Assembly: GCA_017510225.1 (NCBI GenBank)
Contig: JAFWNS010000043.1
Span: forward strand, 1-62,144
Origin: Bacilli bacterium
GTDB taxonomy: Bacteria > Bacillota_I > Bacilli_A > RF39 > UBA660
DNA length: 62,144 nt
Direction of reading: 5' to 3'
The notes below the pieces were generated by a model. That model was not told where the DNA came from. It was given only the letters and a program-made list of their open reading frames with translations, and searched no databases. How positions within the stretch are numbered: position 1 is the first letter of the stretch; each line of letters opens with the position of its first letter. This document shows positions 25,756-50,581 of the stretch, in pieces. The position numbers were made by a program, and so were the translations under genes.

Positions 25756-27033
25756 CTATCTTACTATATAAGGTTTTGACTTAGTACCTTTTCCACCTTT
25801 AACCATAGTATCACTAGATAGCATGATTACAGGTCTAATATCAGAATATGTCATTGCTTCTGTAGTAGAAATTTCACCAGTATTACTAATATAGAATATT
25901 TCTGAATCATTGTTTTTAGATGCAGTAACTAAAACCCATTCATAATCAGTTGCTAAATAATTATAGTTTTGACATGATGGATCATTATCTTTAGTACATT
26001 TTGGATCTAAACTAGCAAACATATAATCAGAAACTGTAAGTAATCCCATTTTTTGATCAGATAAGACTTCCCCACATTCAATAGAATTATCTTTAACAGT
26101 ACTTCCTACTTTTCTCTTAGCAATACATAAATCAAAGTTAACCATCTTTGCTTTATCATCTGTTGATAAAATCTTTGTATCTTTATCTTTATCTCTATAT
26201 GTTTTCTTTAAAAATTCACGTATTCTACTAGCTTTATAATCATTAATACCAGAATTATATCCTTCTGTAGTATTAAATCTATCATCCCATACTGAAGAAT
26301 TCTCATATACACTATTTAAAACTAACATTACTTCATTATTTCCACTAATCTTAACAACTCTCCAAGTTTTTTTATTCATTTTAACATAGTTTTTAACTTT
26401 TTCTCCTCGGAATATATATCCATTATTAACACTATATAAACCTTCTCCACTAGTAACTATCTTTTTCTTTAAAGCTTTATGTAATTCAGTACTATTATAT
26501 TCAGAACCACAATTTAAGTATGGAGTATAAGCATACTTACCATCTACTTTTTTAACAGTAACTCTACCAGAACAACTAGTATCTTCTCCTAAGTATTCAC
26601 TCATCTCATCCATATACTCATTTTTAATTAACGTAGAATCAGTGATTGCAACCACTTGTTTTCCTTTTGGTAAACTTTTTTTATGATCTGCAAAATACTC
26701 TTTAGCAGCATCCTTCATTATATCTTCAACATCTTCATATGTATAAGAAGGCTTACTAAATATAGATGCAATTCCCATAAACAATCCGATAACTAGAAAT
26801 AATCCTAAAATTATACCCATAATAAGAATTAATCTTTTTTTAAGATCATTTCCGCCTCCACTAAAACTACTTGGTAATGAAAAACCAGTTTTTTCAGAAG
26901 ACTCATCTTCCATTATATCGTCATCTTCAAGTTTTATATCTTCGTCTTCATCTGTAAGTTCTTCTACAACTTCTTTTTCATCAGTAGTATTATCTTCTGT
27001 TATTTCTTTTTCAATATTATCATTTTCATCCAT
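25756..27033 (-). CDS. Membrane-anchored surface protein, paralogue of the 47204-49018 product
   Basis: Acidic N-terminus, one TM helix, then an ectodomain. It shares SCSGRVTVKKVDGKYAYTPYLNCG and a C-terminal RPVIMLS...GGKGTKSKPYIV motif with the 604-aa protein at the other end of the cluster. Confidence 0.6.
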   Translation of the reverse strand: MDENDNIEKEITEDNTTDEKEVVEELTDEDEDIKLEDDDIMEDESSEKTGFSLPSSFSGGGNDLKKRLILIMGIILGLFLVIGLFMGIASIFSKPSYTYEDVEDIMKDAAKEYFADHKKSLPKGKQVVAITDSTLIKNEYMDEMSEYLGEDTSCSGRVTVKKVDGKYAYTPYLNCGSEYNSTELHKALKKKIVTSGEGLYSVNNGYIFRGEKVKNYVKMNKKTWRVVKISGNNEVMLVLNSVYENSSVWDDRFNTTEGYNSGINDYKASRIREFLKKTYRDKDKDTKILSTDDKAKMVNFDLCIAKRKVGSTVKDNSIECGEVLSDQKMGLLTVSDYMFASLDPKCTKDNDPSCQNYNYLATDYEWVLVTASKNNDSEIFYISNTGEISTTEAMTYSDIRPVIMLSSDTMVKGGKGTKSKPYIVR

Positions 27034-27047
27034 AATAATACCTCCTA

Positions 27048-29225
27048 TTAATTATCAAAAAAATCATCAAAGAATTCATCATCATCTTCTTCATCTAGTA
27101 CTAAATGATCTGTAGAAGGAGCAATCTTTGGTTTTTCTTCTCTCTTAACATCAGGTTGAACAGGTTTAGGTTTTTCTGGAGCTGATTTAACTTCAGGTTT
27201 TTCAGGCGCAGATACAGTTCCACTTGGAGTCATACCTTTAGCTTTCTTCTCTTCTTCCTCTTCCTTCTCCAATTCTGCTATTTTAGCATCTATCTTTCTA
27301 ACTAAATCATCTACATTAAAAGTAGCAGACTCATCTTCCTTTTCCTCTTCAACAGGACTAGGACTAGGTTTACGCGCAGGAGCCTCTTCTCTAGGTTTTG
27401 GTGGATTATCGAATGGTCTATCCATACCAGGAAGTCCTGGACCAGGTCCCATCATTCCCCTATGCATAGGCATCTCATCCATAGTATTATCTGCACTTGC
27501 ATTCATCATATCTAATAATTTCTTCTTTTTTCTTTCTTTTACAAACTCTTTTATATCAAAAGTATGAACTTGTTCTTTCTCTCTATGAGGATATTTAGCA
27601 ACAGGATACTTTTCACCCCAATCCAATTTATAAAATGGAGTAAATTTAGTCTTAAATGGTTGCTTTCTAAGTCTTAAAATAACAACTTCAAATTGTTTCA
27701 TTCTCTGTAAGTCAGAAACAGTTACCAATGGCGTAGATGCAGTCTTATCATCTTTTTTAGACTTCTCTTCACCACACATTTTAGAAATTTCTTCTAAGGC
27801 CTTTAACTCAGTAGTAATCAAATAAATAATATTACCACAGTTACCCCTAATAGTTTCTGCTTCCTCTTTACCATAAACTTGATCTAATTGAGCAAAGTTT
27901 TGAATAATCATTGTAAATCTAATTTTTCTAGAACGAGCCGCAGTAATCATTGTAGTAACATCTTTTAAAGGCGGCATGTTCGCAAACTCATCAAGTATAA
28001 AATTTGTTCTAACTGGAAGTTGTCCACCATGTTTTTGTGCAACTCTAATTAATGTTTCATAAATTTGTTTTAATAAAATTGTAACTAACGAATGATATGT
28101 TTTCTTTTCATCTTGAATAACTATAAATACTGCTGTTGGTCTTTCACCAATAGACTCTAAATTTATATCACTATGAGATAACATTTCACTTAAGTTTTCA
28201 CGTGATGCAAACAATTTAACTTTTTGTTTAAATACTGATAAGATACTTCCTTTTGTATCTGTAGGAGCCATAATTGTACTAGAAGCATTAATTGCAGCTG
28301 CACTAGCTGGATCTTTATCAGCAAAATATTCTTTAATATATGTTGAACCACCAAATTTCTCTTCACCAACTGTAGTAGCAAGAGAAATACTATTAATATT
28401 TATTTCATCTTCTTTAGCATCTTCAAACAAACCTAAAGCAACTCCAGAAAAATAATCTGCAGAAGTCTTTTCCCAGAAAGGATCGGCATTCTTATTTGAA
28501 TCATCATATAATATATTTAATGCTAAGTCATCAAGTAACTCAATAGCTTTATCTTGATTACCACCCTTATACATTTGGTAAGGCAAACTCATAGGATTCC
28601 AAGCATTACCATTTTGTGGATCACGGAAATTTAAAAGTAATATTTGATATCCTTTTTTACGTAACATATTACTAGTTTTTTCATAAATTTCACCTTTAGG
28701 ATCGGTAATAATCATTGATTCTTTATTTTTAGCTAAACTATAAACTAAAGGTAATACAACAGCTTGAGTTTTACCAGAACCAGTAGCACCAATAACTAAT
28801 GAATGGTATTCACTATTATCTACCCACATTTCTTTTTCATTTAAAATTAAGGAAACTCCTGCTGATTTAGATTTCTTTTGTTTAATCTCTACTCTATCTA
28901 ACTCTTCTTTAATTTCACGATCTTTAGCCCATCTAGAATATCCTTTATCTTTTTTATCAGTGGTAAAACCAAAACCTTTATCCATATCAAAGAAGTAGGA
29001 ACTAACACTAGCAAAAAGCCCTACTAATACTAATACATATAACACAAGTGTCGCAACGATAAATCTTGGCCCAAAGGCAGGGAACGGATTTAATCCATAA
29101 AGATATCCTTCAGTAGCAAAACTATTAACATTTAATACACCAATAGCCACTACATAAAGTAAAAATACAGCAAAAATTACAAAAATAGTAATATCTTCTG
29201 GATCTGCTCTAAATTTAAGTTTCAT
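27048..29225 (-). CDS. Type IV coupling protein (VirD4/TraG/TcpA-like ATPase)
   Basis: Two N-terminal TM helices, Walker A VIGATGSGKTQ, Walker B FILDEFANM, and the IQNFAQL motif. A long Pro/Lys/Glu-rich C-terminal tail ends in DEEDDDEFFDDFFDN. Confidence 0.85.
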   Translation of the reverse strand: MKLKFRADPEDITIFVIFAVFLLYVVAIGVLNVNSFATEGYLYGLNPFPAFGPRFIVATLVLYVLVLVGLFASVSSYFFDMDKGFGFTTDKKDKGYSRWAKDREIKEELDRVEIKQKKSKSAGVSLILNEKEMWVDNSEYHSLVIGATGSGKTQAVVLPLVYSLAKNKESMIITDPKGEIYEKTSNMLRKKGYQILLLNFRDPQNGNAWNPMSLPYQMYKGGNQDKAIELLDDLALNILYDDSNKNADPFWEKTSADYFSGVALGLFEDAKEDEININSISLATTVGEEKFGGSTYIKEYFADKDPASAAAINASSTIMAPTDTKGSILSVFKQKVKLFASRENLSEMLSHSDINLESIGERPTAVFIVIQDEKKTYHSLVTILLKQIYETLIRVAQKHGGQLPVRTNFILDEFANMPPLKDVTTMITAARSRKIRFTMIIQNFAQLDQVYGKEEAETIRGNCGNIIYLITTELKALEEISKMCGEEKSKKDDKTASTPLVTVSDLQRMKQFEVVILRLRKQPFKTKFTPFYKLDWGEKYPVAKYPHREKEQVHTFDIKEFVKERKKKKLLDMMNASADNTMDEMPMHRGMMGPGPGLPGMDRPFDNPPKPREEAPARKPSPSPVEEEKEDESATFNVDDLVRKIDAKIAELEKEEEEEKKAKGMTPSGTVSAPEKPEVKSAPEKPKPVQPDVKREEKPKIAPSTDHLVLDEEDDDEFFDDFFDN

Positions 29226-29277
29226 ATCTCTACTCCCTTTCTTAAATTATTTTATCACGATTTGAAGTTGGTATCAA

Positions 29278-29802
29278 CTATTCACTAACACCATCTTTAG
29301 GATCCATAGTAGCTTGATCATTATCATCAGGTTTAGCCTTCTCCATCTCATCTAGCTCTTTTTCCTTTTTATATTTTTTAGGATTCATAATTTCTAAATA
29401 AGTTTTTTTAGTATAATGAGTAGTTTGACTAGTATCTAGTGTATCACCACTCCAATAAAACTTATTATTACTTGGATCATATTTACATTCAATTAATGTT
29501 TCAAACTCATTATTTAATGAGAAATATATATATTTATTATCATCTTCAATAACTTTTTTAAATGTTATTACTTTATAATAATTATATTTTTCTTTATTAA
29601 GATAATTAATTATATCTTCATAAAAGGCAGATAATTCATTTTTATTAAGATCTAAAATTTTAGTATTTCTGAAATCTACATCACTAACTCTAACTTCTGT
29701 AAAATAAGGATCTTCATCTTTATTAATAAGATAAATAGTCGCTATAATAGCACCTAAAATAACTAATAATAGTAATACAACTTTTACATTTTTCTTTTTC
29801 AT
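29278..29802 (-). CDS. Bitopic membrane protein; candidate VirB8/TcpC-like channel component
   Basis: N-terminal TM anchor plus a roughly 100-aa ectodomain. It sits between the coupling protein and the hydrolase. The assignment rests on position and topology only. Confidence 0.25.
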   Translation of the reverse strand: MKKKNVKVVLLLLVILGAIIATIYLINKDEDPYFTEVRVSDVDFRNTKILDLNKNELSAFYEDIINYLNKEKYNYYKVITFKKVIEDDNKYIYFSLNNEFETLIECKYDPSNNKFYWSGDTLDTSQTTHYTKKTYLEIMNPKKYKKEKELDEMEKAKPDDNDQATMDPKDGVSE

Positions 29803-29813
29803 ATTATTCCTCC

Positions 29814-31952
29814 TTATTTTTTTCCATATTTATTATAGAAATCATGAGCATATTTATATCTATTTGGATAATTTGGTTTACCTGCTCTTTCAAAGCTTTG
29901 TTCAAAAGCTCTAACTGCCCAATCTACATCATGATTTTTAATAAAGTGTTTAAAACCACCAAATCTATTATTTAACACACTCTTAGTAGTAGCTTCTCCA
30001 CCATTTAATTCATACCATAAGAAGTCTAATTGAACTCCTAAGTCTTCCCAACTCTTATGAGCTTTCTTAGCCCTATTAACTAGAGTATTGAATCTTCCAC
30101 CAACTGACCATTGAGCAATACCTCGACCTGGTCCATTAGCTTGACGACTCTTAGGATTTATACCACTTTCTTGTTGTAGGTTACCCATAATACCAGCAGT
30201 TGTTTCTTTAGAAACACCTTTATCTCTAAAGAAATTCCATGTCTTCTGTGCATATGTTGACCCTTTAAGTTTTGTTGCTGAACCTTTTGGATAAGCAGGA
30301 GTTGCAAAACCTGTACATCCAGTAGCAGCTACACTATTCCAAATATTTCTAGATACTTTATCTCCACTATTACCTTCTATTGTATATAGTTTACCACCCT
30401 GTACTTTTTCAACTATACCAATATGTGACCATCCCTTAGGATTTTGTCCATCCTTCCAAATAATTAAATCACCAGGTTTTGGAGTATATCCAGAACTTAA
30501 AGAATGAAATTTACCATGCTTTTGAACTGCATAATAACTATAAAAATTATCAACAGCAGCACTATGAGGTATTATAGAACGAGCAATACCGGCTTCATTT
30601 GCACACCAAGATACAAATGCAGCGCACCAATGTTGTCCAACAATTCCCATATATCTTTGATATTTATTATTAGTATCATTAAATCTATCTGGATTTGAAG
30701 ATTTTAACTGATCCTTAGCTACTTGAACCAATCTTTGAGCAGAACCAGATCCTTCAGCATCTTCATCATCCTCTTCTTCAACACCATACATTTGCTCAAA
30801 GTTTTTTACATAATTAATAACTTCACGTGCCATTTTTCTATTTTCTTCTGCTGTTGCTTTTGGAAATACTTCTGGAAAGAATTTTTCTCTTAAATTCTTT
30901 TCATAAGTTTCTTCATTGAATGTATATTCACCATCTTTTTCATCAAACATATAATCTGCTAACTGTTTTATTTTAGCAGTAGTCAGATATTTATAAGCAT
31001 AAATTTCATTTTTTCTTGTACTAATTACATAATAGGCACCTGCAATATATAGTGGTTTAACTTTTTTACCTTGTTCACTATAGTCACTTTTTACATCTTT
31101 AACTCTTTTATAAAACTCTTTAGCAGTTTTACTTGAATCATCACATTTTTCTTTGTTTTGTTGTTGTACATAATCAACAACACAAACACCATCATTAACA
31201 GCACTACCAGTTCCAGATGATTCAGAACCAGCAGCTGATACAAGAGCAGATAATAATATAATAAAACCAAAAGAAATAATTCCAATAAGAATAAGTTTCT
31301 TTTTATTAAAAAAACCACTAGCACTAAAAGAACCGCTCTTTTCTCCATTATCTTTATTCTTATTACCACCAGAAAGTGCATTTCCTGCACCTAATTTATT
31401 AGCTTTATCAGCTACTTCTGCAGCTGCCTTAACCTGTGGAATAGGAATATGTTTTGCTATTTGTATAGCTCTATTTAATCTTCGTTTCTTCTTCTCTGCT
31501 TCGTCATCTTTAGGTTTAGCATTACCTCTCATATTATTAAGTAATGCTCTACCATTATTATGACTGCTAGGACCACCAGCTTGTTGCGCAGCTCCTGCTC
31601 CTTTACCGGCTGCACCAGCAGCGCCAGCCCCCTTACCAGCAGCTCCTGCTCCTCCAGATCCTAATGATGTTGCCATATTGGCAGCATCTAATAGACCTGT
31701 ATCCTTAGCTTTTTTTGCTGCTTTACCGAATTTTCCACCAGTTGCTTTATTTATTGTTTTTCCTAATTTTTCTTCTTCTTTATCTAATTTTTTACCAACA
31801 ACAGGCACATTTTTGGCTTGATCATAAACAGCTCCACCAGCTCCACCAGTGAAATAATCAATAGCCCCTTTAGCAGCTACACCTGTAGCTTCTTTTGCTG
31901 CTTCATTTTCTTGAGCTTTTTTTATTTGTCTTTGATCATTACTATCAGCCAT
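29814..31952 (-). CDS. Bifunctional cell-wall hydrolase (CHAP amidase/peptidase + lysozyme-like domain), VirB1 functional analogue
   Basis: CHAP Cys (QHWCAAFVSWC) and His (WSHIGIVEK...EGNSGD). C-terminal lysozyme-like domain (GIMGNLQQESG...GRGIAQWS). One TM helix follows a roughly 210-aa Gly/Ala/Lys-rich N-terminal region. Confidence 0.8.
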   Translation of the reverse strand: MADSNDQRQIKKAQENEAAKEATGVAAKGAIDYFTGGAGGAVYDQAKNVPVVGKKLDKEEEKLGKTINKATGGKFGKAAKKAKDTGLLDAANMATSLGSGGAGAAGKGAGAAGAAGKGAGAAQQAGGPSSHNNGRALLNNMRGNAKPKDDEAEKKKRRLNRAIQIAKHIPIPQVKAAAEVADKANKLGAGNALSGGNKNKDNGEKSGSFSASGFFNKKKLILIGIISFGFIILLSALVSAAGSESSGTGSAVNDGVCVVDYVQQQNKEKCDDSSKTAKEFYKRVKDVKSDYSEQGKKVKPLYIAGAYYVISTRKNEIYAYKYLTTAKIKQLADYMFDEKDGEYTFNEETYEKNLREKFFPEVFPKATAEENRKMAREVINYVKNFEQMYGVEEEDDEDAEGSGSAQRLVQVAKDQLKSSNPDRFNDTNNKYQRYMGIVGQHWCAAFVSWCANEAGIARSIIPHSAAVDNFYSYYAVQKHGKFHSLSSGYTPKPGDLIIWKDGQNPKGWSHIGIVEKVQGGKLYTIEGNSGDKVSRNIWNSVAATGCTGFATPAYPKGSATKLKGSTYAQKTWNFFRDKGVSKETTAGIMGNLQQESGINPKSRQANGPGRGIAQWSVGGRFNTLVNRAKKAHKSWEDLGVQLDFLWYELNGGEATTKSVLNNRFGGFKHFIKNHDVDWAVRAFEQSFERAGKPNYPNRYKYAHDFYNKYGKK
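31572..31661 (-). repeat. Gly/Ala-codon tandem repeat inside the hydrolase gene
   Basis: It encodes GSGGAGAAGKGAGAAGAAGKGAGAAQQAGG. The unit GAAGKGAGAA occurs twice in tandem, with near-identical DNA. Confidence 0.8.
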
Positions 31953-31976
31953 TATATCACCTACTTCTTGCTAAAA

Positions 31977-43345: not shown

Positions 43346-43789
43346 TTATTTTTTAAACTCTTCTTTAATCTTGTTTTCACAATATTGATCGTAATGATAA
43401 TTCTCTTCTAATATAGCATCTACAGTAGTAGTAATTGCTTGTCCTTCACCTTTTACTCTTAATACTGTTTGAGAATCAATCTTTACACTTGCTTTTGGTG
43501 GTACTTCACTTATATCATAAAAAGCTACCACATATTCACGAGTATTATCTACAGTATCAGCAAATCTACAAAGAAAACTTTCAATAAACTTTTCTCTATC
43601 AATTCTAAGCATACATGTTTTTCTATAAAATGAAGTATCTACAGCATCATTCATTGATGATTCTGCAGTTTCCTTCAACAGGTAGTAATCTAATTCACTA
43701 CCTGTTGAGTAGTTAGAAACAATATTTATCATCAATAAAGCTATAGCACTTAATATAATAATACCCACTGTTAACATCGCTTTATTCAT
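43346..43789 (-). CDS. Membrane-anchored hypothetical protein (possible pseudopilin-like)
   Basis: N-terminal hydrophobic anchor (MLTVGIIILSAIALLMINIV) plus a roughly 115-aa domain. The assignment is positional only. Confidence 0.3.
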   Translation of the reverse strand: MNKAMLTVGIIILSAIALLMINIVSNYSTGSELDYYLLKETAESSMNDAVDTSFYRKTCMLRIDREKFIESFLCRFADTVDNTREYVVAFYDISEVPPKASVKIDSQTVLRVKGEGQAITTTVDAILEENYHYDQYCENKIKEEFKK

Positions 43790-43807
43790 ACTTTATAACC
43801 TCCCATT

Positions 43808-46345
43808 TTACTTTACATAACGATTTATATCTGCAGAACGATTTAATGTTTTTGTTTTACCATATGACATATCAAAATATGTACTATAATGTGTAATCAA
43901 TGGTGAAGAATATCTGTAAATATGTTGATAGATACCTGTATCACCAACTGGTTGTTGTGCAAAGTTTCCTTTGTAATTAGTATAATTACGGTCTTTTGTA
44001 TTTTTAGTATAATCTCTTATCTTAGCTAATTTTTCTTTAGTTAGTTTAACTCTGAAATCTAATTTAGCATCAGTATAAACTTCTTTTCCTTGAATTGCAC
44101 TTATCATAGCTTCTATATCAAGATTTTTGAAACTAGAAGCAGCAGTCCAGTTAAATCCAACATCATTTTCTTTTCTATCTCCAAACATCTTATTTGTATC
44201 AACAATTCTGAATTCTGAATTAGTTATTGGATTAGTCTCTTGTCCACATGGTTTATTACAACATTCTCCTGTACATGATTTTGGACAATCAGTTCCACAA
44301 CAATCCTTTGTACATTTTGAATCATTTGGTGGTGCTGTTTCTGTATTCTTAATAGCATAGAAACAATTCATTATAATTTCCCAAGCATAATGTCCAAAGT
44401 TTTTAGTAACACCTTTAATATTTTCCTTATCTTCTATTCTACCATTGAAATCTCCATTACTATCTCCGAAATATGAATTACCAACTTGATCCCACATCCA
44501 CCATTGGATATTAGTTGATTTAGCATTTAATGGTAAACAGAATTTATTTTCAAATGGTTTCCAATAAGCTCCGTTTTGTTTAGAATAAGAAATTTCTCCA
44601 TTCTTATTATTCATCCAAGTACCAGGGAATGTCCATTCACCTTGATACCAAGTAAATTTAGCATCTTTTGTATAACAAGAATTAGTATCTTCTGTCACAT
44701 GATTATACTTTGGTGAAATTATAGTTGTATTCTTTTTATCATTAGTATTATAAGTACCATCAGGTGAACTTAACTTATCATAATCTGAATCATTAGGGAA
44801 ATGTATTGTAGTTGCAGTTGATTGATCTGCTGCTTGATATTTAACATCGATAGTATAAGTAGATGTCTTAGTTGTACAACCCTTAGCAGCTTTACATTCT
44901 TTTAATTTTTTCTCATAATCTTCTGCATGTTTATCAGCATCTGCTTGTGCTTGTTTAGGATTTAGATAATCATCTTTGCTACAAGAATCTGTATCCCATG
45001 CGCAAGTTTCATTACAGTTAGTAGCCTTCCAAATACCATTAACTGGCACATATGTACACTTTTTACAGTAATGTTGATGCGGATCATAATTTCCATACCA
45101 ACGTCCTATTTTACTACTCTTAGAACGCCAATTTATACTATTACCACTCCAATAATAACATCCATCTTTATCAGGACAATTATATCCATATTTTTTAGAT
45201 GCTACTTGAGTTGCACCTATAGAAGTTGTAACATCATTCATAGCAGTGTTAGTTGTTTTTTCTGATTCTCCATAAACCTTCTTATAACATTTATCACTAC
45301 ATTTTCTGCTGTATTTTCCTCCATCACAGTCTTTAATACAACTTTCATATTTATCATTTGGTCCACCTTGTCTAATTGTACCTAAACTACTATTGAAACA
45401 TTCAGGTGGTGGTGTACAAGTTTTATAATCACTTTCTTTAGGATAATTATCAGTAACTTCTGCTTCACATTTTACATAACTAGTAACTTTAAATTTATAT
45501 TCAAAACATTGTCCAGCTTTTGAAGCAACAGGAGGTCCATATTCTGCTTTAAGAACTTCTGTACATTTTTTCTTACAAACAGTAACAGTTTTATCTTTTC
45601 TACCATTACTATATTTATATGTATAAGTTACTTTACCAGCATCTCCTTTAGTATAAAAATAATTTACATTAGAATAATAATTTTTCTTTTTATTATCTTC
45701 TGTATACTTCTCAGATTGTTTTATACCATTCTTATAATAATACTTACTAGAATTAGGATTACAATATAATTTTTTAGTTAAATCATCTTTTTTAACATAA
45801 TGACCTTGAGCTTCTTTTAAAGCCTTATCAAAATCAGGATGAGCTGGTGATTCAGATGCTTCCTTAATTAATTTTAATAATGTTGCTTTATTAATAATAG
45901 AAGCATTCATTTCACGTTTTGTACCATATGTAGTATATCCAACTGTTCCTTTTGTATTTTTCTTTTTATATTTAGCTCCTTTTGTATCAGCAGAACCAAC
46001 TTTGTTAACACCAAAATCTATAACTACTTGACTGTTATCAGGTGTAATAGTAAGTTCTTTACTTTCAGATCTAAATTTTGTACCTACATAGTTAGTAGTT
46101 GAATGACCCTTTACCTTCTCAATAATAAATTGAGTTCTCTGTTCAGTAGTCTTTTGTTGTTTATTCCAATCACACACTATTTTATAGACGTTCTTTCTAA
46201 CTCTTTTTAAATGAACTCCATAATAATCTGATAAATCTACTTTTTTACTCTTTGCATACGTATCTGGAGTATATGCAAAAATACAAAGTATTAACGAAAT
46301 AACAACCCCAATCTTTACTAATTTAAACTTCTTCATTTTCTTCAC
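43808..46345 (-). CDS. Large secreted cysteine-rich protein (candidate adhesin/tip or matrix component)
   Basis: Sec signal peptide (..FAYTPDTYA|KSKK). There are about 32 Cys in the mature part by hand count, many as CxxC, CxxxC or CC pairs (CKKKC, CIKDC, CSDKC, CKKC, CTKDCCGTDCPKSCTGECCNKPC). No sorting signal found. Confidence 0.6.
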   Translation of the reverse strand: MKKMKKFKLVKIGVVISLILCIFAYTPDTYAKSKKVDLSDYYGVHLKRVRKNVYKIVCDWNKQQKTTEQRTQFIIEKVKGHSTTNYVGTKFRSESKELTITPDNSQVVIDFGVNKVGSADTKGAKYKKKNTKGTVGYTTYGTKREMNASIINKATLLKLIKEASESPAHPDFDKALKEAQGHYVKKDDLTKKLYCNPNSSKYYYKNGIKQSEKYTEDNKKKNYYSNVNYFYTKGDAGKVTYTYKYSNGRKDKTVTVCKKKCTEVLKAEYGPPVASKAGQCFEYKFKVTSYVKCEAEVTDNYPKESDYKTCTPPPECFNSSLGTIRQGGPNDKYESCIKDCDGGKYSRKCSDKCYKKVYGESEKTTNTAMNDVTTSIGATQVASKKYGYNCPDKDGCYYWSGNSINWRSKSSKIGRWYGNYDPHQHYCKKCTYVPVNGIWKATNCNETCAWDTDSCSKDDYLNPKQAQADADKHAEDYEKKLKECKAAKGCTTKTSTYTIDVKYQAADQSTATTIHFPNDSDYDKLSSPDGTYNTNDKKNTTIISPKYNHVTEDTNSCYTKDAKFTWYQGEWTFPGTWMNNKNGEISYSKQNGAYWKPFENKFCLPLNAKSTNIQWWMWDQVGNSYFGDSNGDFNGRIEDKENIKGVTKNFGHYAWEIIMNCFYAIKNTETAPPNDSKCTKDCCGTDCPKSCTGECCNKPCGQETNPITNSEFRIVDTNKMFGDRKENDVGFNWTAASSFKNLDIEAMISAIQGKEVYTDAKLDFRVKLTKEKLAKIRDYTKNTKDRNYTNYKGNFAQQPVGDTGIYQHIYRYSSPLITHYSTYFDMSYGKTKTLNRSADINRYVK

Positions 46346-47171
46346 CTTCCAATATCTTTTTCACTTTTGAATATTTTTTATTAACTTTGACTCCATAATT
46401 TTTAAGTTTCTCACCTTTTCTAACTAATCTAGCATTTACTCTAAAATTAATTTTGTCATTATCTCCAAAAAATCTTGTACAAGTAATAAGTGAAATAAAC
46501 TTGTCTTTATTATTAACCGATACATCAAAATCATATATACTATTCTTTTTAGTATCGTTAATAAACTTATCTTTTTCTTTCTTTGTATAATTACTATCAG
46601 AATATAAATCTAACTTATAATAATTAACAAATTCAACAGAATATATTTTATAAATATAATTCTTACCATCAATGGTATATTGTATATATTTATTATCTTT
46701 AATATGATCATAATATACAAATGCCATCAAATCATCAAACCTTGAGAAATGTTTCAATGAAACATCCGGATGTGTAGATAAATTCAAAAGGTTATGTCCC
46801 ATTATGCTCACTTTATTAAATAGTTTTTCTTTACTATTCATATTCCAAACATAATTTTCTTTCTTTATATAATGATCTGCATCAGCATTCTCATCAGTTT
46901 TACTACCTTCATCATCACCATAATAATAAATTATTGGTGTATCTATCTTGGTTCCTTGAACTTTAACCCATCCTATAGTTTTTACATAAAGAGAATTATC
47001 TTTTTTTTGTTCTTCTTTTATGTTTTTAATTCTAGAATCAACTTTATATATATCTGGTTTAAAACTATCTATTAAGAATTTGATGCCTAAAACAGAAAGA
47101 ATTAAAAGCAAAACAATTAAAACTATAACTATTGCTTTTAATTTAGTTGTATGTTTATTTTTTACGAGCAT
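46323..47171 (-). CDS. Class B-like sortase
   Basis: N-terminal TM anchor and TIGWVKVQGTKIDTPIIY. Catalytic His (SIMGHNLL), Cys (SLITCTRF) and Arg (RVNARLV) appear in the canonical order. Confidence 0.75.
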   Translation of the reverse strand: MLVKNKHTTKLKAIVIVLIVLLLILSVLGIKFLIDSFKPDIYKVDSRIKNIKEEQKKDNSLYVKTIGWVKVQGTKIDTPIIYYYGDDEGSKTDENADADHYIKKENYVWNMNSKEKLFNKVSIMGHNLLNLSTHPDVSLKHFSRFDDLMAFVYYDHIKDNKYIQYTIDGKNYIYKIYSVEFVNYYKLDLYSDSNYTKKEKDKFINDTKKNSIYDFDVSVNNKDKFISLITCTRFFGDNDKINFRVNARLVRKGEKLKNYGVKVNKKYSKVKKILEGEENEEV

Positions 47172-47203
47172 ATAGACATCACCTCTACTCCTAAACCAAT
47201 ATC

Positions 47204-49018
47204 TTATTTAGTTATTTTATATGGATTATTCTTAGTTCCTTCTCCACTAACTACTTTAATATCAGAATTCATATAACCGCATAATCTAATACCAAATTCA
47301 TGGAAATCATACATATCTTCATTAGTAATATAACCAATATCTGTAATTAAAGCTTTCTTATATTGCTTCTTAGAAGAATTTATCAACCAATATGATCCCA
47401 TTGTAGCACCATCACGTTGATTATATACGAATGCACTAAACATATCATACATATTAGGAGCAAAAAGTTTTACCTTATACTTTTTAGTTTCCATCTCCTT
47501 TTTGTATTTAATACTATTTTTATAAATAGGAACCTCTATATCTTTCTTAACAAAATAATCAGTTTTTAAATACCTACTCATTTTGTTTTTAATAAAATAT
47601 CCTACATTTCCTCTTTGATTTGGATTGTATATTTTAGCCTTATCTTTTGTCTTATAGAATGTTAGAACATTTAGCTCATCACCTTTAACAGTGTTATCCA
47701 TTATAACTTTTGTTGTTCCATCATTATCTGTTTCTATAATCCTCCATAAATAATTAGCATATTCAAAATACTCACCAGTTTTTCTTTTATTTAGTTTTGT
47801 ATTAGTTTTAGCTTTCTTAACATCACCTAAGTAATATGGACTCTCATATGTACCTAAACCTTTCTTAACTAAAGAAGATCCTTTAATAGTTATAACTGGT
47901 CTAACACCATAATTATAATTCTTATCAAAAGCTAACATATCTTTACCATAATCTTCTTCATAAAAAGCATTTCTAGTAGCATATGATTCTTTATCATCTT
48001 TCTTATTAGCTAACCATGATATAGTAACTGGTTTTAAGAAACTATTTCCATCAACTAAACTTTTATTAAGTTCATTAGCCGATAAAATATATACTTTCTT
48101 TTTCTCAGTAGTAGAACTACATCTTGTTGTATCTGTATTAGTATCAGAAAGTTTCATATTACAATAATTATCTTCTACTATATATTTTTTAGATTTATTA
48201 TCTAGATGATCATAATAGTACTCTAACCATTTATCAATACTATCATAATTAACATTACTAACATCTTGATCTGCTATTATCTTTACATTAGTACCATCAG
48301 TACCAATAATTCTAAATAACATACCAGAAAAATAAATGTAATTATTTGGATTATCACCTTTATAATAACCTAACTTATCTGTATTCTTCTTAACAACATT
48401 TTTAATTCTTGAAACTACTTTTACTTTTCTAACTTTAACAGTCTTATTATTTAAACTATCATAAGCAGTATAAGTAACTTCATAAGTTCCAACTTTCTTA
48501 GTATTAACAGTTTTAGAATTAATAACAACTTCATTAGGACTAATTCTACCATCACTATTATCACTAACACTCTTAACACCTAATTCATTATACTTAGAAC
48601 CTTTATTAACAGTAACTACATCATTACCAAACAATGTTATCTCTGGACCTTTATGATCTACCATAGATCTCATAAAACCACATTCTAAGTATATATAATA
48701 TTTATATCTACCATCTACTCTTTTAACCTTTGCCCAACTATTAGTAACAGAACAAGATTTATTAGTTAAAGGAACATTCATATCTTCCTTTAAAAAAGCT
48801 TTACTATATAGATGTTTTAAAGAAATAGTTTTAACTCTACGTCCAGTAGGAAGTTCATTACTATTTACTTCAAAATATCTTTTAGAAGCTTTCATCATTT
48901 TATCTTCATTACTTTTAAATGTAATTATTGGGCTTAATATTAAAAACCAAACTAGAAATAATACTACAAATACAATACTGATCACACTAACTTTTCTTAC
49001 AATTTTCTCCGCATCCAT
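47204..49018 (-). CDS. Membrane-anchored surface protein with Ig-like (DUF5011-type) domain; paralogue of the 25756-27033 product
   Basis: TM anchor and the shared module SCSVTNSWAKVKRVDGRYKYYIYLECG. An Ig-like segment follows (GPEITLFGNDVVTVNKGSKYNELG...GTYEVTYTAYD). Two copies of the domain end in G.GT...PY.. Confidence 0.6.
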   Translation of the reverse strand: MDAEKIVRKVSVISIVFVVLFLVWFLILSPIITFKSNEDKMMKASKRYFEVNSNELPTGRRVKTISLKHLYSKAFLKEDMNVPLTNKSCSVTNSWAKVKRVDGRYKYYIYLECGFMRSMVDHKGPEITLFGNDVVTVNKGSKYNELGVKSVSDNSDGRISPNEVVINSKTVNTKKVGTYEVTYTAYDSLNNKTVKVRKVKVVSRIKNVVKKNTDKLGYYKGDNPNNYIYFSGMLFRIIGTDGTNVKIIADQDVSNVNYDSIDKWLEYYYDHLDNKSKKYIVEDNYCNMKLSDTNTDTTRCSSTTEKKKVYILSANELNKSLVDGNSFLKPVTISWLANKKDDKESYATRNAFYEEDYGKDMLAFDKNYNYGVRPVITIKGSSLVKKGLGTYESPYYLGDVKKAKTNTKLNKRKTGEYFEYANYLWRIIETDNDGTTKVIMDNTVKGDELNVLTFYKTKDKAKIYNPNQRGNVGYFIKNKMSRYLKTDYFVKKDIEVPIYKNSIKYKKEMETKKYKVKLFAPNMYDMFSAFVYNQRDGATMGSYWLINSSKKQYKKALITDIGYITNEDMYDFHEFGIRLCGYMNSDIKVVSGEGTKNNPYKITK

Positions 49019-49027
49019 ATTATTCTC

Positions 49028-50581
49028 CTATTTTAATTCAAAAGTATATTTCTTATTTCTAACCGTATAAACCATCTTCATATTTTTAGATTCAGATAAT
49101 TCCTTAGGAACTCTAATATACATATACTGACCCATATACTTTCTACCGATAGCATCTTTGATCTTTATACTCCTATCTTTATCTTTACTATCTATATAAT
49201 TAATTTTACCATATTTAGCCGAAAAGTCAATTAATTCTTTACCTTCAAAGGCGTCTGAAACGAAATCAATTTTTAATATTTTTGAATCATTATTACTACT
49301 TACAAAATCAGTCGCTGAAGCGCATAATTCTTCGTCATCACATTCTTCATAATTATATTCAGCTTTATCAACAAATTTAGCTGATTCTATAGTAAGATCT
49401 TTCTTATTAGGACCTACATCTATAACTGCTTTATGCCCTTTCTTAGTAGGTTTCATATCGACAATTTTTGACACATCTTCCATATTAAGTTTTATCTTTC
49501 TTAAAAACGGTTTATTATTTATATAATCTTGATAATAAAGAACAAACTTATCTTTAGGTAATTTTTTATCCACTTTAAAAACCATTATTAAATTAATATT
49601 CTCTCCTGATTTAAATTCTTTCTCAGAATAAGTAACTCCTAAATCAGAAAAATCACTTTCATAAGTTCTATAAGTATCCGTATAATCATTTACACCATTC
49701 ATAACATGAAATCTCTTAAAATTAATATCTCTACGATAAACATTATTTTTAATATTCATACTAACTATTACAAAATTACTAGTCTTAGAAATAACTTTTC
49801 CATTATAATTTTTATCTGTATAATAACTATTTTTAATATTTAAAGTATATCCATTTAATTCAAATACATCTCCTTGTTTATAAGATCTACGTAATATAAA
49901 TATGTTATAAAAAGATGTTACTAAAAATATCCCAATAACTAGAGTAATTAAAACATTAGATAAAAACTTATGTTCTTGATATACATAACCAACATTTCTA
50001 AGGAATCTCTTATAACCCCTAATAAAAGTATGTTTATCAATATCAATATTTACTTCAAATTCTTCTCTATCTCCACTATCTAGTTCTAGGTATTCCTGAT
50101 CTATTTTAAAATTAAAATTGTTAATATCAATACCAAATATTCTAATTAATAATATTATAAACACAGGATATTGTCCTAAAGAAACTATTAATAATAAATC
50201 CCTAATAGCTCTAACACCAGTAGTACCTTCTCCCCTATAATTAGAAAAGAAATTAGATGTTATTATAAGCATTAAAAACATTGCACTATATACAATAATA
50301 GGCACTAAATATAATTTCCATGGTTTATTTTTACGTTTTAATAAAACCAATAGTGCAACAGATAATCCAATAACAATCAATAACCCTAAAATAAGAATAA
50401 GATTGATGTGTCTAGATATAGGTTCAGAGTTAATATCATATGATCCTAAAGTTACAAACTCAGATACAAAAGATCTTGTCTGAATACATTTATAAAATAT
50501 ATAAGCACATAAAAACAACATAAAAATATGTATCTTTTTAAAGTTCTTAACTAAAAACGCATATGGCTTTCTGAATATCAT
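49028..50581 (-). CDS. Polytopic membrane protein with large extracytoplasmic C-terminal domain (unknown function), first gene of the cluster
   Basis: About five hydrophobic segments in the first 230 aa or so, then a hydrophilic domain of about 290 aa. The SD is GGTAGGAGGGTG. A TATAAT hexamer at 50608-50613 (minus strand) is a possible -10. Confidence 0.55.
   Translation of the reverse strand: MIFRKPYAFLVKNFKKIHIFMLFLCAYIFYKCIQTRSFVSEFVTLGSYDINSEPISRHINLILILGLLIVIGLSVALLVLLKRKNKPWKLYLVPIIVYSAMFLMLIITSNFFSNYRGEGTTGVRAIRDLLLIVSLGQYPVFIILLIRIFGIDINNFNFKIDQEYLELDSGDREEFEVNIDIDKHTFIRGYKRFLRNVGYVYQEHKFLSNVLITLVIGIFLVTSFYNIFILRRSYKQGDVFELNGYTLNIKNSYYTDKNYNGKVISKTSNFVIVSMNIKNNVYRRDINFKRFHVMNGVNDYTDTYRTYESDFSDLGVTYSEKEFKSGENINLIMVFKVDKKLPKDKFVLYYQDYINNKPFLRKIKLNMEDVSKIVDMKPTKKGHKAVIDVGPNKKDLTIESAKFVDKAEYNYEECDDEELCASATDFVSSNNDSKILKIDFVSDAFEGKELIDFSAKYGKINYIDSKDKDRSIKIKDAIGRKYMGQYMYIRVPKELSESKNMKMVYTVRNKKYTFELK

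What the first reader, a model, noticed from the sequence alone, without database searches (positions are those of the whole stretch)
25756..50581. Chromosomal, relaxase-less cluster fusing a Gram-positive conjugation-type T4SS with a Tad/Flp-type pilus module
Twenty-two co-oriented ORFs lie between housekeeping genes (rhodanese/rmuC side and greA side) and are closed by strong intrinsic terminators. One half holds the hallmark Firmicute T4SS set. It comprises a VirD4/TraG coupling ATPase (VIGATGSGKTQ, FILDEF), VirB4 (GTSGSGKST, MVDEAH), a PrgI/VirB3-like protein, a polytopic VirB6-like protein, a CHAP+lysozyme hydrolase, and two VirB2-like hairpin proteins. The other half holds a Tad-type set. 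It comprises a CpaB/SAF protein, a CpaF/TadA ATPase (CGETGSGKTE, ITIEDT, STIHA), two T2SS-F platform proteins, a 58-aa pilin-like ORF, and a degenerate ParA/TadZ-like protein. A class B sortase, an 845-aa Cys-rich secreted protein and paralogous surface proteins at both ends are interleaved. I could not recognise a relaxase, integrase or recombinase, replication or partition gene, or prepilin peptidase. I also saw no flanking direct repeats and no adjacent tRNA target. To my knowledge the described Gram-positive conjugation machines (Tn916, ICEBs1, pCW3, pCF10) do not use a CpaF/VirB11-class ATPase with a Tad platform. Described Tad loci likewise do not carry VirB4 plus VirD4. So this looks like a domesticated three-ATPase composite machine. 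Candidate roles are pilus-assisted effector or adhesin delivery, DNA release or uptake, or a transfer apparatus that serves elements mobilised in trans.
Basis: partly seen in the sequence, partly recalled or inferred. Interest (0 to 1): 0.9.

Follow-up and report, generated by a model that had tools for sequence, protein, structure and literature searches.

The report
Domesticated conjugation-type machine in RF39 gut bacteria
An uncultured, small-genome group of gut bacteria (order RF39) keeps, at a fixed place in its chromosome, a complete plasmid-type DNA/protein transfer machine plus a pilus kit but no gene for mobilising DNA, which suggests the machine now serves the cell itself.

Summary
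There are 22 co-oriented genes (25756-50581, minus strand) between greA and rhodanese/rmuC. They encode a Gram-positive T4SS: VirD4, a split VirB4, VirB6-like, PrgI-like, two VirB2-like T4SS pilins and a wall hydrolase. They also encode a Tad-like module: CpaB, a CpaF-class ATPase, two platform proteins and a pilin. A sortase and fast-evolving surface proteins complete the set. The window holds no relaxase, integrase, flanking repeat or nearby tRNA.

The "new fusion" claim fails. The same two modules sit together on the conjugative plasmids pLS20 and pBMB67 and on a Mycoplasmatota plasmid. HMMs of eight cluster families hit pBMB67.

The domestication reading is supported. More than 540 species-level genomes of gut Bacilli (Ca. 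Faecimonas/CAG-877, order RF39) encode relatives. In 160 fetched loci the gene order is colinear and almost always in the same chromosomal context. The core genes are as conserved as GreA and RmuC (dN/dS 0.04-0.16), and all three ATPases keep their motifs.

The closest analogue is the relaxase-less chromosomal T4SS of Patescibacteria. The cargo is unknown. I rate it a new variant of a known kind; I found no paper describing it.

The parts
50582..50668 (-). greA terminator hairpin (50637-50668), then a putative promoter (-10 TATAAT at 50608-50613) and an AGGAGG ribosome-binding site ahead of g01
   Evidence: Sequence read. The hairpin folds at -7.5 kcal/mol, z -2.6, and is followed by U8. The promoter is read from the sequence only; consensus scans were not above chance.
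49028..50581 (-). g01: 517-aa membrane protein with about four N-terminal TM segments and a large extracytoplasmic domain; function unknown
   Evidence: No Pfam or NCBIfam hit. TM profile. Present and syntenic in 70 of 80 loci at a median 46% identity.
47204..49018 (-). g02: N-terminally anchored surface protein with an Ig-like domain; paralogue of g22
   Evidence: PF16403 E 1.3e-14. BLASTP against g22 gives E 2e-12 plus a shared C-terminal GxGTKxxPY motif.
46323..47171 (-). g03: sortase, class B-like
   Evidence: PF04203 E 2.3e-7. TIGR03064 E 3e-12, below its cut-off. The LITC and GHN motifs are present. No substrate with a sorting signal exists in the cluster.
43808..46345 (-). g04: 845-aa secreted, beta-rich protein with 33 Cys; fast-evolving; candidate tip, adhesin or exposed component
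   Evidence: 199 homologues, all unnamed and without Pfam domains. AF2 pLDDT 72. No PDB fold match better than E 0.07. dN/dS 0.58-0.70.
43346..43789 (-). g05: DUF5411 protein with an N-terminal TM segment (possible minor pilin)
   Evidence: PF17424 E 3.9e-45. A homologue heads the stand-alone Tad-like module in L168.
42512..43327 (-). g06: CpaB/RcpC (SAF) pilus assembly protein
   Evidence: PF16976 E 2e-7 and TIGR03177 E 8e-10. The family HMM hits the pBMB67 SAF protein at E 8e-32.
41168..42469 (-). g07: CpaF/TadA-class hexameric ATPase with a variable Pro/Thr/Gln-rich C-terminal tail
   Evidence: T2SSE E 1.4e-26. Best PDB relatives are CpaF at 2.6e-19 and FlaI, ahead of VirB11 at 2e-13. It is 36% identical to pLS20 TadA. 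Walker A, Walker B and His box are invariant in 87 orthologues.
40257..41153 (-). g08: first platform protein (TadB position), a divergent T2SSF-like protein
   Evidence: hhalign against the ORF after the pBMB67 ATPase gives prob 98.4, E 7e-15; against pLS20 p38, prob 97.1. phmmer E 3.6e-8 to a protein that NCBI names T2SS F family. No direct Pfam hit. dN/dS 0.05-0.07.
39475..40257 (-). g09: second platform protein (TadC position)
   Evidence: hhalign against the second ORF after the pBMB67 ATPase gives prob 94.7. HMM E 8e-12 to pBMB67 and 2e-5 to pLS20 p39.
39207..39383 (-). g10: 58-aa pilin-like protein
   Evidence: The N-terminus MKAATGELNLTVITLIAIAAVIGFFW is essentially invariant in more than 100 species, while the C-terminus is hypervariable. 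It does not carry the Flp G/xxxxEY motif.
38701..39186 (-). g11: 161-aa protein with an N-terminal TM segment (possible minor or pseudo-pilin)
   Evidence: No family hit. Homologue in the L168 Tad-like module at E 2e-6. TM profile.
37678..38670 (-). g12: cytoplasmic protein at the TadZ position, with a degenerate P-loop and a MinD-like amphipathic C-terminal tail
   Evidence: No Pfam, NCBIfam or PDB hit. It aligns weakly over the P-loop with the pBMB67 AAA ATPase (E 0.013). The IFGLFRR tail is conserved.
37266..37616 (-). g13: VirB2-like T4SS pilin
   Evidence: Two-TM hairpin. 51 of 72 g13/g14 orthologues match PF18895 T4SS_pilin, best E 3e-7. The window copy has no direct hit.
36769..37182 (-). 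g14: second VirB2-like T4SS pilin, paralogue of g13
   Evidence: The C-terminal PTCG motif and a Cys pair are conserved.
34616..36751 (-). g15: extended VirB6/TrbL-like polytopic channel protein with a long variable C-terminal domain
   Evidence: PF19597 TrbL_4 E 8e-11, above its cut-off. Weak hits to MMCAP2_0566 and pLS20_p028. HMM E 2e-6 to pLS20 p028.
34284..34601 (-). g16: PrgI/VirB3-like two-TM protein
   Evidence: HMM E 1.4e-7 to the ORF at the same position on the Mycoplasmatota plasmid, and 6e-4 to the pBMB67 PrgI-family protein.
33761..34333 (-). g17: N-terminal domain of VirB4, encoded as a separate ORF
   Evidence: Matches positions 100-276 of NCBIfam VirB4_plasma, E 1e-15. Its stop overlaps the g18 start in ATGA. 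The same split occurs on pBMB67 (HMM E 1.5e-20).
31977..33764 (-). g18: VirB4 ATPase domain
   Evidence: VirB4_plasma E 1.5e-102 (344 bits, below the equivalog cut-off of 590) and CD1110 family E 4e-50. Walker A and B are invariant in 99 orthologues. dN/dS 0.04-0.08.
29814..31952 (-). g19: membrane-anchored cell-wall hydrolase (CHAP plus lysozyme), the VirB1 analogue
   Evidence: PF05257 E 4e-14 and PF18013 E 5e-34. In L081 this slot holds M23 and NlpC/P60 enzymes instead.
29278..29802 (-). g20: 174-aa N-terminally anchored protein; function unknown (variable slot)
   Evidence: No family hit. Detected in only 2 loci.
27048..29225 (-). g21: VirD4 coupling ATPase with a hypervariable linker and an invariant C-terminal tail, DDDDFFDDFFD[NE]
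   Evidence: PF02534 E 7e-57. NF045973 scores 303 bits against a cut-off of 250. Motifs intact in 74 orthologues. The tail is invariant and absent from the pLS20 and pBMB67 VirD4 proteins.
25756..27033 (-). g22: surface protein with a DUF6273 domain; paralogue of g02
   Evidence: PF19789 E 1.3e-5. Paralogy shown.
25723..25757 (-). Terminator-like hairpin followed by U9, closing the cluster
   Evidence: Sequence. It folds at -8.6 kcal/mol, z -1.4. It fails the GC-pair rule of the scanner.

Best explanation
What it is. The cluster is the mating-pair-formation apparatus of a pLS20/pAW63/pBMB67-type Gram-positive conjugation system. It has been fixed in the chromosome of an RF39 (Ca. Faecimonas/CAG-877-like) gut bacterium without a DNA-processing module, and it is kept by selection as a working host machine.

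Shown:
- The gene content.
- Homology of both modules to the plasmid systems.
- Absence of relaxase and integrase genes from the window.
- Clade-wide synteny and purifying selection.
- Intact motifs in the three ATPases.

Inferred mechanism:
- The CpaF-class ATPase, the two platform proteins, CpaB and the TadZ-position protein assemble a short filament from the 58-aa pilin and minor pilins (g05, g11).
- That filament, together with the fast-evolving surface proteins (g01, g02, g04, g22), makes contact with a target cell.
- The CHAP/lysozyme enzyme opens the cell wall.
- The split VirB4, VirB6-like and PrgI-like proteins and the two T4SS pilins build the channel.
- VirD4 recruits cytoplasmic cargo through its invariant acidic-aromatic C-terminal tail and feeds it outward.

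Because VirD4 is retained, I favour contact-dependent export of DNA or protein to another cell over DNA uptake. The cargo and the target are not known.
For: Gene content.

Same composite on plasmids. Homology of both halves to pBMB67 and pLS20.

No mobility genes in 52 scanned window ORFs. No flanking repeats, and GC3 matches the host genome. No nearby tRNA.

More than 540 species genomes have relatives. The order greA-g01..g22-rhodanese-VTT-rmuC is strictly colinear. Median identities are VirB4 86%, ATPase 79-83% and VirD4 74%, against GreA 84%, RmuC 83% and TrpRS 77%.

dN/dS is 0.04-0.16 for core genes, against 0.05-0.10 for RmuC and GreA. Walker motifs are intact in 87, 99 and 74 unique orthologues of the three ATPases.

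The pilin N-terminus is invariant and its C-terminus variable, which is the typical pattern for filament subunits. The VirD4 tail is invariant.

Clade identity: PMC8035907.
Against: - No experiment or expression data exist for any of these genes.
- A relaxase, a prepilin peptidase or the cargo genes could lie elsewhere in the genome; only 62 kb was examined.
- The platform proteins and the TadZ-like protein have no direct family hit, and the g08 structure model was too poor to use.
- The pilin lacks the canonical Flp motif.
- A Tad-like module alone exists in an Erysipelotrichaceae genome, so the two halves might act independently.
- dS values are near saturation, so the dN/dS figures are rough.
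Confidence: 0.6

Rival explanations
1. DNA-uptake (competence) machine. The T4SS and the Tad-like filament would import environmental DNA, as ComB does in Helicobacter and as Tad pili do in Micrococcus transformation. In an auxotrophic small-genome organism this could serve nucleotide salvage or recombination.
For: The locus has no relaxase. A pilus module is present. RF39 has a reduced genome with many auxotrophies (PMC12306168). Whole-locus allele swapping shows that homologous recombination with foreign DNA happens in these genomes.
Against: ComB-type uptake systems lack VirD4 (PMC12857230). Here VirD4 is strongly conserved and carries an invariant docking tail. No ComEC or ComEA-like gene lies in the cluster or the window.
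Confidence: 0.15
2. Two independent systems that merely sit side by side. A Tad-type adhesion pilus and a separate T4SS would each work alone.
For: The Tad-like module (homologues of g05-g09 and g11) stands alone in an Erysipelotrichaceae genome, with no VirB4 or VirD4 within 10 kb. On pBMB67 the two modules are separated by about 9 kb.
Against: The two modules are contiguous, co-oriented and in the same order in every one of the 160 loci that spans them. There is no convincing internal terminator. They are also contiguous in the single pLS20 conjugation operon, and they co-occur on three unrelated plasmids.
Confidence: 0.15
3. A still-mobile integrative element (ICE or IME) whose relaxase and recombinase are too divergent to recognise or lie outside the window.
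For: Several cluster proteins have no assigned family (g01, g04, g12, g20). Cluster GC is slightly above that of the flanks. The cluster is more diverged than its flanks in the closest genome.
Against: The chromosomal site and flanks are the same in nearly all loci that reach them, across dozens of species. There are no att-like repeats and no tRNA target. All unassigned proteins except g12 are membrane or secreted proteins. Identity tracks the housekeeping genes, r 0.73.
Confidence: 0.05
4. A decaying remnant of an integrated plasmid or ICE, without function.
For: The DNA-processing module is missing. The hydrolase slot and some small genes vary between genomes.
Against: ORFs and catalytic motifs are intact in all orthologues. 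Core genes have dN/dS of 0.04-0.16. The cluster is retained in hundreds of species with genomes of about 1.4-1.5 Mb.
Confidence: 0.03

Closest known systems
Conjugation operon of pLS20-family plasmids (Bacillus subtilis)
   Same: One co-oriented operon contains adhesin genes, a TadA/VirB11-like ATPase followed by two membrane proteins and small TM proteins, and then VirD4, a VirB6-like protein, a small PrgI-position protein, a split VirB4 and a hydrolase (PMC8557374). The ATPase is 36% identical. g08 matches p38 (hhalign prob 97.1), g09 matches p39 and g15 matches p028.
   Different: pLS20 is a plasmid with a MobL relaxase, replication, surface-exclusion and quorum-sensing control genes; the window has none of these. 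pLS20 has no annotated CpaB, sortase or T4SS_pilin genes in that stretch, and its VirD4 lacks the acidic tail.
pBMB67/pAW63-type conjugative plasmids of the Bacillus cereus group
   Same: These carry VirD4 (CD1115 family), TrbL, PrgI and a split VirB4, together with SAF/CpaB, an AAA ATPase, a T2SSE ATPase, two membrane proteins, a small pilin-like ORF and DUF4320. HMMs of eight RF39 families hit pBMB67. The pAW63 literature names VirB11, VirB4 and VirD4 (PMC9673590).
   Different: They are plasmid-borne with a MOBP relaxase. The two modules lie about 9 kb apart and in the opposite order. The Tad-like nature of the second module is not discussed in the papers I read.
Relaxase-less chromosomal T4SS of Patescibacteria (CPR), essential for epibiotic growth in Saccharibacteria
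   Same: It is a monoderm, MPF-FATA-derived T4SS that is chromosomal, mostly lacks a relaxase and is lineage-wide in organisms with reduced genomes. It carries VirB2-like pilins detected with PF18895 (PMC12102498; PMC12857230).
   Different: It belongs to a different phylum. Type IV pili are encoded separately there, whereas here a Tad-like module lies in the same operon. Whether the RF39 VirB4 is related to the Patescibacteria VirB4 clade was not tested. No essentiality data exist for RF39.
Mycoplasma ICE T4SS (Mbov_0397-type VirB4, MMCAP2_0566-type membrane protein)
   Same: The best NCBIfam model for g17/g18 is the mycoplasma ICE VirB4 (E 1.5e-102), and g14/g15 weakly match the MMCAP2_0566 conjugal transfer family. 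RF39 genomes were formerly binned as Tenericutes or Mycoplasma.
   Different: The scores are below the equivalog cut-offs. To my knowledge, mycoplasma ICEs are mobile, carry a DDE transposase and have no Tad-like module.
Tad/Flp pili (Caulobacter Cpa, Aggregatibacter Tad, Gram-positive Tad loci)
   Same: Shared parts are a CpaF-class ATPase (best PDB hit), CpaB/RcpC, two platform-position membrane proteins, a short pilin with an invariant hydrophobic N-terminus, and a protein at the TadZ position.
   Different: The pilin has no G/xxxxEY motif. No prepilin peptidase lies in the window. The platform and TadZ proteins are too divergent for direct family hits. The module is embedded in a T4SS operon.

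Membership tests
Gram-positive (MPF-FATA-type) T4SS | VirB4-family ATPase | tested here: met
   g17 plus g18 match VirB4_plasma at E 1e-15 and 1.5e-102, and the CD1110 family at 4e-50. The motifs are intact. Scores are below the equivalog cut-offs, so the match is at family level, not subfamily level.
Gram-positive (MPF-FATA-type) T4SS | VirD4-type coupling protein | tested here: met
   NF045973 scores 303 bits against a cut-off of 250. PF02534 E 7e-57.
Gram-positive (MPF-FATA-type) T4SS | VirB6/TrbL-like polytopic protein, PrgI/VirB3-like protein and a cell-wall hydrolase | tested here: met
   TrbL_4 is above its cut-off. The PrgI link rests on the family HMM at E 6e-4 and 1.4e-7 in a database of 150 ORFs. 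CHAP plus lysozyme is present. A VirB8-like protein was not identified.
Conjugative element (plasmid or ICE) | Relaxase (MOB) with oriT | tested here: not met
   No relaxase family appeared among the 22 cluster proteins or the 30 flanking ORFs, nor in the variable slot of L081. The rest of the genome could not be searched.
Conjugative element (plasmid or ICE) | Integrase or recombinase, att repeats, and variable presence among relatives | tested here: not met
   No such genes were found. The longest shared flank repeat is 13 nt and lies inside coding sequence. The site is the same in nearly all loci that reach the flanks.
Tad/Flp pilus system | CpaF/TadA-class ATPase | tested here: met
   The best solved relatives are CpaF (E 2.6e-19, aligned over residues 5-256) and FlaI, ahead of VirB11 at 2e-13. 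The NCBIfam VirB11 and TadA models score alike, and both are below their cut-offs.
Tad/Flp pilus system | Two T2SSF-family platform proteins (TadB, TadC) | tested here: inconclusive
   Neither protein has a direct Pfam, NCBIfam or PDB hit. PF00482 hits 5 of 30 distant homologues and plasmid counterparts. g08 matches a protein named T2SS F family at phmmer E 3.6e-8. The AF2 model was too poor to use.
Tad/Flp pilus system | Flp-type prepilin (G/xxxxEY) and a dedicated prepilin peptidase | tested here: not met
   The g10 leader is MKAATG-ELNLTV, with no EY motif. The Mycoplasmatota plasmid pilins do carry GSxSLEY. No A24 peptidase is among the scanned window ORFs.
Tad/Flp pilus system | CpaB/RcpC and TadZ | tested here: inconclusive
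   CpaB is met. g12 as TadZ rests only on its position, a weak P-loop alignment (E 0.013) and a MinD-like tail.
pLS20/pBMB67-type T4SS with a CpaF-class module | Both modules homologous and linked on one replicon | tested here: met
   HMM hits of g06, g07, g08, g09, g16, g17, g18 and g21 to pBMB67, and of g07, g08, g09, g15, g18 and g21 to pLS20. hhalign results.
Patescibacteria-type co-opted T4SS | Chromosomal, relaxase-less, lineage-wide, with PF18895 VirB2-like pilins | tested here: met
   These are analogies of organisation only.
Patescibacteria-type co-opted T4SS | VirB4 falls inside the Patescibacteria VirB4 clade | not tested
   No Patescibacteria VirB4 sequence could be obtained.
Class B sortase system | Catalytic His and Cys motifs | tested here: met
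   GHN and LITC are present in the window protein, and GHN in 67 of 73 orthologues. The TIGR03064 score is below its cut-off.
Class B sortase system | A substrate with a C-terminal sorting signal (motif, TM segment and charged tail) | tested here: not met
   None of the 22 cluster proteins has one.

The most novel reading that the evidence does not exclude
The machine could be a lifestyle organelle of RF39, as the T4SS is for Saccharibacteria. These auxotrophic, uncultured gut Bacilli would use it to attach to another cell (bacterial or host) and exchange macromolecules with it. Alternatively, it could drive relaxase-independent chromosomal DNA exchange among RF39 cells, which would account for the whole-locus allele swapping seen here. 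It would also be direct comparative evidence that one class of Gram-positive T4SS builds filaments, both a Tad-like one and a VirB2-like one, against the textbook view that monoderm T4SSs lack pili and VirB11-class ATPases.
Probability: 0.3. Interest if true: 0.85.

Novelty: new variant of a known kind. Interest (0 to 1): 0.7.

Why it matters
RF39 is a widespread, never-cultured order of gut Bacilli with genomes of about 1.4-1.5 Mb and many auxotrophies, and how it lives is unknown. It keeps a 25-kb, three-ATPase contact and transfer machine under purifying selection as strong as that on the neighbouring housekeeping genes GreA and RmuC. That is a concrete, testable lead to its lifestyle: dependence on partner cells, DNA exchange, or both. 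It also gives targets for enrichment and imaging.

The locus is a second case, after Patescibacteria, of a monoderm conjugation machine co-opted across a whole lineage.

The homology to pLS20 and pBMB67 also shows that a Tad-like filament module and VirB2-like pilins belong to some Gram-positive T4SSs. That bears on the open question of how Gram-positive mating pairs form. As late as 2024-2025, papers state that these systems lack pili and VirB11 homologues (PMC11730352, PMC12857230).

Tried and rejected
- AF2 model of g08 from a 33-sequence, low-diversity alignment gave pLDDT 55. It was not used for a fold search.
- Profile searches of the g08 and g12 families against PDB sequences found nothing meaningful.
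- A Foldseek search of the g04 model found only generic FN3/Ig sandwiches, E >= 0.07.
- The search for homologous proteins with g08 was saturated by near-identical RF39 proteins and gave no distant relatives.
- A genome scan with the 34%-identical relative P0131 found nothing.
- A 3300-job hhalign run timed out and was replaced by hmmsearch.
- My first dN/dS script was off by one codon and gave nonsense. The corrected script, with a translation check, is.
- Consensus promoter and terminator scans were not above shuffled expectation in this AT-rich DNA.
- Literature searches for RF39 with T4SS, conjugation or pili found nothing relevant.
- I considered the sortase as a pilin-anchoring enzyme, but no sorting signal exists in the cluster.
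- I considered recent horizontal acquisition because GC is slightly raised. GC3 matches the host genome and the site is fixed.

Full report
**1. What is in the sequence**

The window is about 25% G+C. Between 25756 and 50581 there are 22 co-oriented minus-strand ORFs. I number them g01 (49028-50581) to g22 (25756-27033).

For the T4SS half:
- g21 is a VirD4 coupling protein. PF02534 gives E 7e-57, and the NCBIfam CD1115 family scores 303 bits against a cut-off of 250.
- g17 plus g18 are a VirB4 split into an N-terminal ORF and an ATPase ORF. They match positions 100-276 and 294-891 of the mycoplasma ICE VirB4 model, and the two ORFs overlap in ATGA.
- g15 is VirB6/TrbL-like, above the Pfam cut-off.
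- g19 carries CHAP and lysozyme domains.
- The window copies of g13 and g14 have no Pfam hit. However, 51 of 72 of their orthologues match PF18895 T4SS_pilin, and the two genes are paralogues.

For the Tad half:
- g06 is CpaB/RcpC.
- g07 is a T2SSE ATPase. Its best solved relatives are CpaF and archaeal FlaI (E about 1e-19), ahead of VirB11 (E 2e-13).
- g08 and g09 have no direct family hit.
- g10 is a 58-aa protein. Its first 26 residues are essentially invariant in more than 100 species, while its C-terminus is hypervariable. That is the usual pattern for a filament subunit.
- g12 sits at the TadZ position. It has only a degenerate P-loop and a conserved MinD-like tail, IFGLFRR.

For the remaining genes:
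- g03 has a sortase domain.
- g04 has 33 cysteines.
- g02 and g22 are paralogues.

**2. The cluster is not a mobile element**

I scanned 52 ORFs of the window: the 22 cluster genes and 30 others. No relaxase, integrase, replication or partition family appears. The neighbours are housekeeping genes: GatCAB, AspRS, trigger factor, Lon, TrpRS, RmuC, GreA, peptidase U32, YceG and RuvX.

The only repeat shared by the two borders is a 13-nt AT-rich match inside coding sequence, and third-position GC matches the host genes. The only tRNAs are at 8-164.

The cluster starts after a greA hairpin and ends with a hairpin followed by U9. Both are modest (-7.5 and -8.6 kcal/mol), and the consensus scanners do not rate them above chance.

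**3. The composite architecture is not new**

The best plasmid matches of g07 are the TadA/VirB11-like ATPases of pLS20-family plasmids. The pLS20 conjugation operon has the same logic. An adhesin comes first, then the ATPase, two membrane proteins and small TM proteins. VirD4, a VirB6-like protein, a small PrgI-position protein and a split VirB4 follow, and the operon ends with a relaxase (PMC8557374).

pBMB67 of B. thuringiensis carries a MOBP relaxase, VirD4, TrbL, PrgI and a split VirB4. It also carries SAF, an AAA ATPase, a T2SSE ATPase, two membrane proteins, a small ORF and DUF4320. A plasmid from a cold-seep Mycoplasmatota bacterium has VirB4 together with SAF, an AAA ATPase, CpaF and a T2SSF protein, plus textbook Flp-type prepilins.

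Profile comparisons tie the unassigned RF39 proteins to these plasmids:
- g08 against the ORF after the pBMB67 ATPase: probability 98.4, E 7e-15.
- g08 against pLS20 p38: probability 97.1.
- g09 against the next pBMB67 ORF: probability 94.7.

HMMs of g06, g07, g08, g09, g16, g17, g18 and g21 all hit pBMB67. Both halves therefore travel together on conjugative plasmids.

The link of g08 and g09 to the T2SSF family is only transitive. PF00482 hits 5 of 30 distant homologues and plasmid counterparts. One phmmer relative of g08 (E 3.6e-8 against 1.8 billion representatives) is named a T2SS F family protein by NCBI.

The Tad-like half can also exist alone. An Erysipelotrichaceae MAG has homologues of g05, g06, g07, g08, g09 and g11 in a row, with no VirB4 or VirD4 within 10 kb, among restriction and abortive-infection genes.

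**4. Comparative genomics supports domestication**

Scans of one genome per species found more than 540 genomes encoding relatives of VirB4, and likewise of the ATPase. The best 80 VirB4 relatives were 82-97% identical. The records are uncultured gut Bacilli, 'Tenericutes', 'Mycoplasma sp. CAG:877', Ca. Faecimonas and Ca. Onthousia. Ca. Faecimonas is GTDB genus CAG-877, order RF39, with a 1.4-Mb genome at 28% GC (PMC8035907).

In 160 fetched loci the order greA-g01...g22-rhodanese-VTT-rmuC is colinear wherever the contig reaches that far. One more distant genome (L081) has different genes after VirD4.

| Gene | Median amino-acid identity to the window |
|---|---|
| VirB4 (g18) | 86% |
| g07 ATPase | 79-83% |
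| g08 | 77-79% |
| VirD4 (g21) | 74% |
| GreA | 84% |
| RmuC | 83% |
| TrpRS | 77% |

Nei-Gojobori dN/dS is 0.04-0.16 for the core genes and 0.05-0.10 for RmuC and GreA. Exposed proteins evolve fast: g04 0.58-0.70, g15 0.43-0.55 and g19 0.41-0.61. dS is near saturation, so these values are rough.

The Walker A and Walker B motifs are intact in all 87, 99 and 74 unique orthologues of the three ATPases; the His box was checked only for g07 and is intact in all 87 of its orthologues. This rules out a decaying remnant and argues against a mobile element.

**5. Further details that bear on mechanism**

- VirD4 ends in an invariant DDDDFFDDFFD[NE] tail after a hypervariable linker of about 200 residues. 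The plasmid VirD4 proteins lack this tail. I read it as a docking peptide for a conserved partner or cargo adaptor.
- The hydrolase slot between VirB4 and VirD4 is swapped between genomes. The window has CHAP plus lysozyme, while L081 has M23 plus NlpC/P60.
- No cluster protein has a sortase sorting signal. The T4SS pilin paralogue g14 ends in a conserved PTCG motif.
- g04 has about 200 homologues, all unnamed. Its model is of moderate confidence and has no solved-structure match.

**6. Locus-level allele exchange**

In the closest genome (L002/L082), flanking DNA is 94-98% identical to the window, but the whole cluster is only 64-92% identical. The breaks fall near 25.5 kb and 50.6 kb. dS is 0.1-0.3 in the flanks and 0.5-1.2 inside the cluster.

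Over 1830 locus pairs, rmuC identity and virB4 identity correlate (r 0.73), but close pairs are discordant in both directions. The locus is therefore mostly inherited with the chromosome, while whole alleles are sometimes replaced by homologous recombination, as happens at surface-structure loci.

**7. Interpretation**

The most economical reading is that an RF39 ancestor captured the mating-pair-formation part of a pLS20/pBMB67-type conjugative system. That part comprised the channel, the T4SS pilins, the Tad-like filament, adhesins and a hydrolase. The lineage then lost or never retained the DNA-processing part and has kept the machine for its own use.

VirD4 is retained with a conserved docking tail, which points to export of a cytoplasmic substrate into another cell rather than uptake, since ComB-type uptake systems lack VirD4 (PMC12857230). 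Whether the cargo is DNA or protein, and whether the target is another RF39 cell, another bacterium or a host cell, cannot be decided from sequence.

**8. Comparison with what is known**

Co-option of T4SSs without a relaxase is well known in Proteobacteria (PMC3548315). The closest analogue is the chromosomal, mostly relaxase-less, MPF-FATA-derived T4SS of Patescibacteria. It carries PF18895 pilins and is essential for epibiotic growth of Saccharibacteria (PMC12102498; PMC12857230).

I found no paper that links RF39 with a T4SS, conjugation or pili. Recent papers state that Gram-positive T4SSs lack VirB11 homologues and pili (PMC12857230; PMC11730352). The RF39 locus and its plasmid relatives contradict both statements.

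My verdict is a new variant of a known kind, and it is worth following up.

Noticed in passing
window 25500-50600, compared with L002/L082: In the closest relative genome the housekeeping flanks are 94-98% identical to the window, but the whole 25-kb cluster is only 64-92% identical (dS 0.5-1.2 against 0.1-0.3). Other close genome pairs are discordant in both directions. This suggests that whole-locus alleles are swapped by homologous recombination.
   Followed up: partly
window 27051-27086 (C-terminus of VirD4 g21): An invariant acidic-aromatic tail, DDDDFFDDFFD[NE], follows a hypervariable low-complexity linker of about 200 residues in all 74 orthologues. It is absent from the pLS20 and pBMB67 VirD4 proteins. 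It resembles docking tails such as those of F TraD or SSB (that comparison is from memory).
   Followed up: partly
window 33761-33764; also L001, L162 and L163: VirB4 is encoded as two ORFs, a 190-aa N-terminal domain and a 595-aa ATPase, overlapping in ATGA. The same split is present on pBMB67, pLS20 and the Mycoplasmatota plasmid, so it is an ancestral feature rather than a frameshift.
   Followed up: yes
window 46323-47171 (g03) and 36769-36800 (C-terminus of g14): The conserved sortase has no substrate with a sorting signal in the cluster. The T4SS pilin paralogue g14 ends in a conserved ...PTCG(I/L)x motif, and both pilins keep an N-terminal/C-terminal Cys pair. Sortase-mediated processing or cyclisation of the pilin is a speculation that I did not test.
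   Followed up: no
window 29278-31952, compared with L081 11760-16705: The slot between VirB4 and VirD4 is variable. The window has one CHAP-plus-lysozyme protein and a 174-aa ORF. L081 has an M23 peptidase, an NlpC/P60 protein and three unassigned ORFs.
   Followed up: partly
L168 7788-14610: An Erysipelotrichaceae MAG carries a stand-alone Tad-like module (homologues of g05, g06, g07, g08, g09 and g11, plus an 870-aa PKD-domain protein). It sits inside a defence island with type I RM, Abi, HEPN and Dam methylase genes, and has no T4SS genes within 10 kb.
   Followed up: partly
window 37681-37707 (C-terminus of g12): The TadZ-position protein keeps a C-terminal (G)KIFGLFRR motif like the amphipathic membrane-targeting tail of MinD. 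Its P-loop lacks the signature lysine (IIGxxNxTDxAGxTT).
   Followed up: partly
L002/L082, L016/L110, L112, L121, L160 (record titles): Several contigs that carry this RF39-type locus are deposited under unrelated names ('uncultured Muribaculaceae', 'Acidaminococcus fermentans', 'uncultured Clostridia'). These are probably binning or labelling errors in the public records.
   Followed up: no
window 19573-19784 and 8-164: A T-box leader (138 bits) lies upstream of the gatCAB operon, and tRNA-Thr(TGT) and tRNA-Val(TAC) lie at the window's start. Neither is related to the cluster.
   Followed up: no
literature compared with L001 and L163: [quoted passage not shown] Yet pLS20 and pBMB67 carry a CpaF-class ATPase with platform-like and pilin-like genes.
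   Followed up: partly
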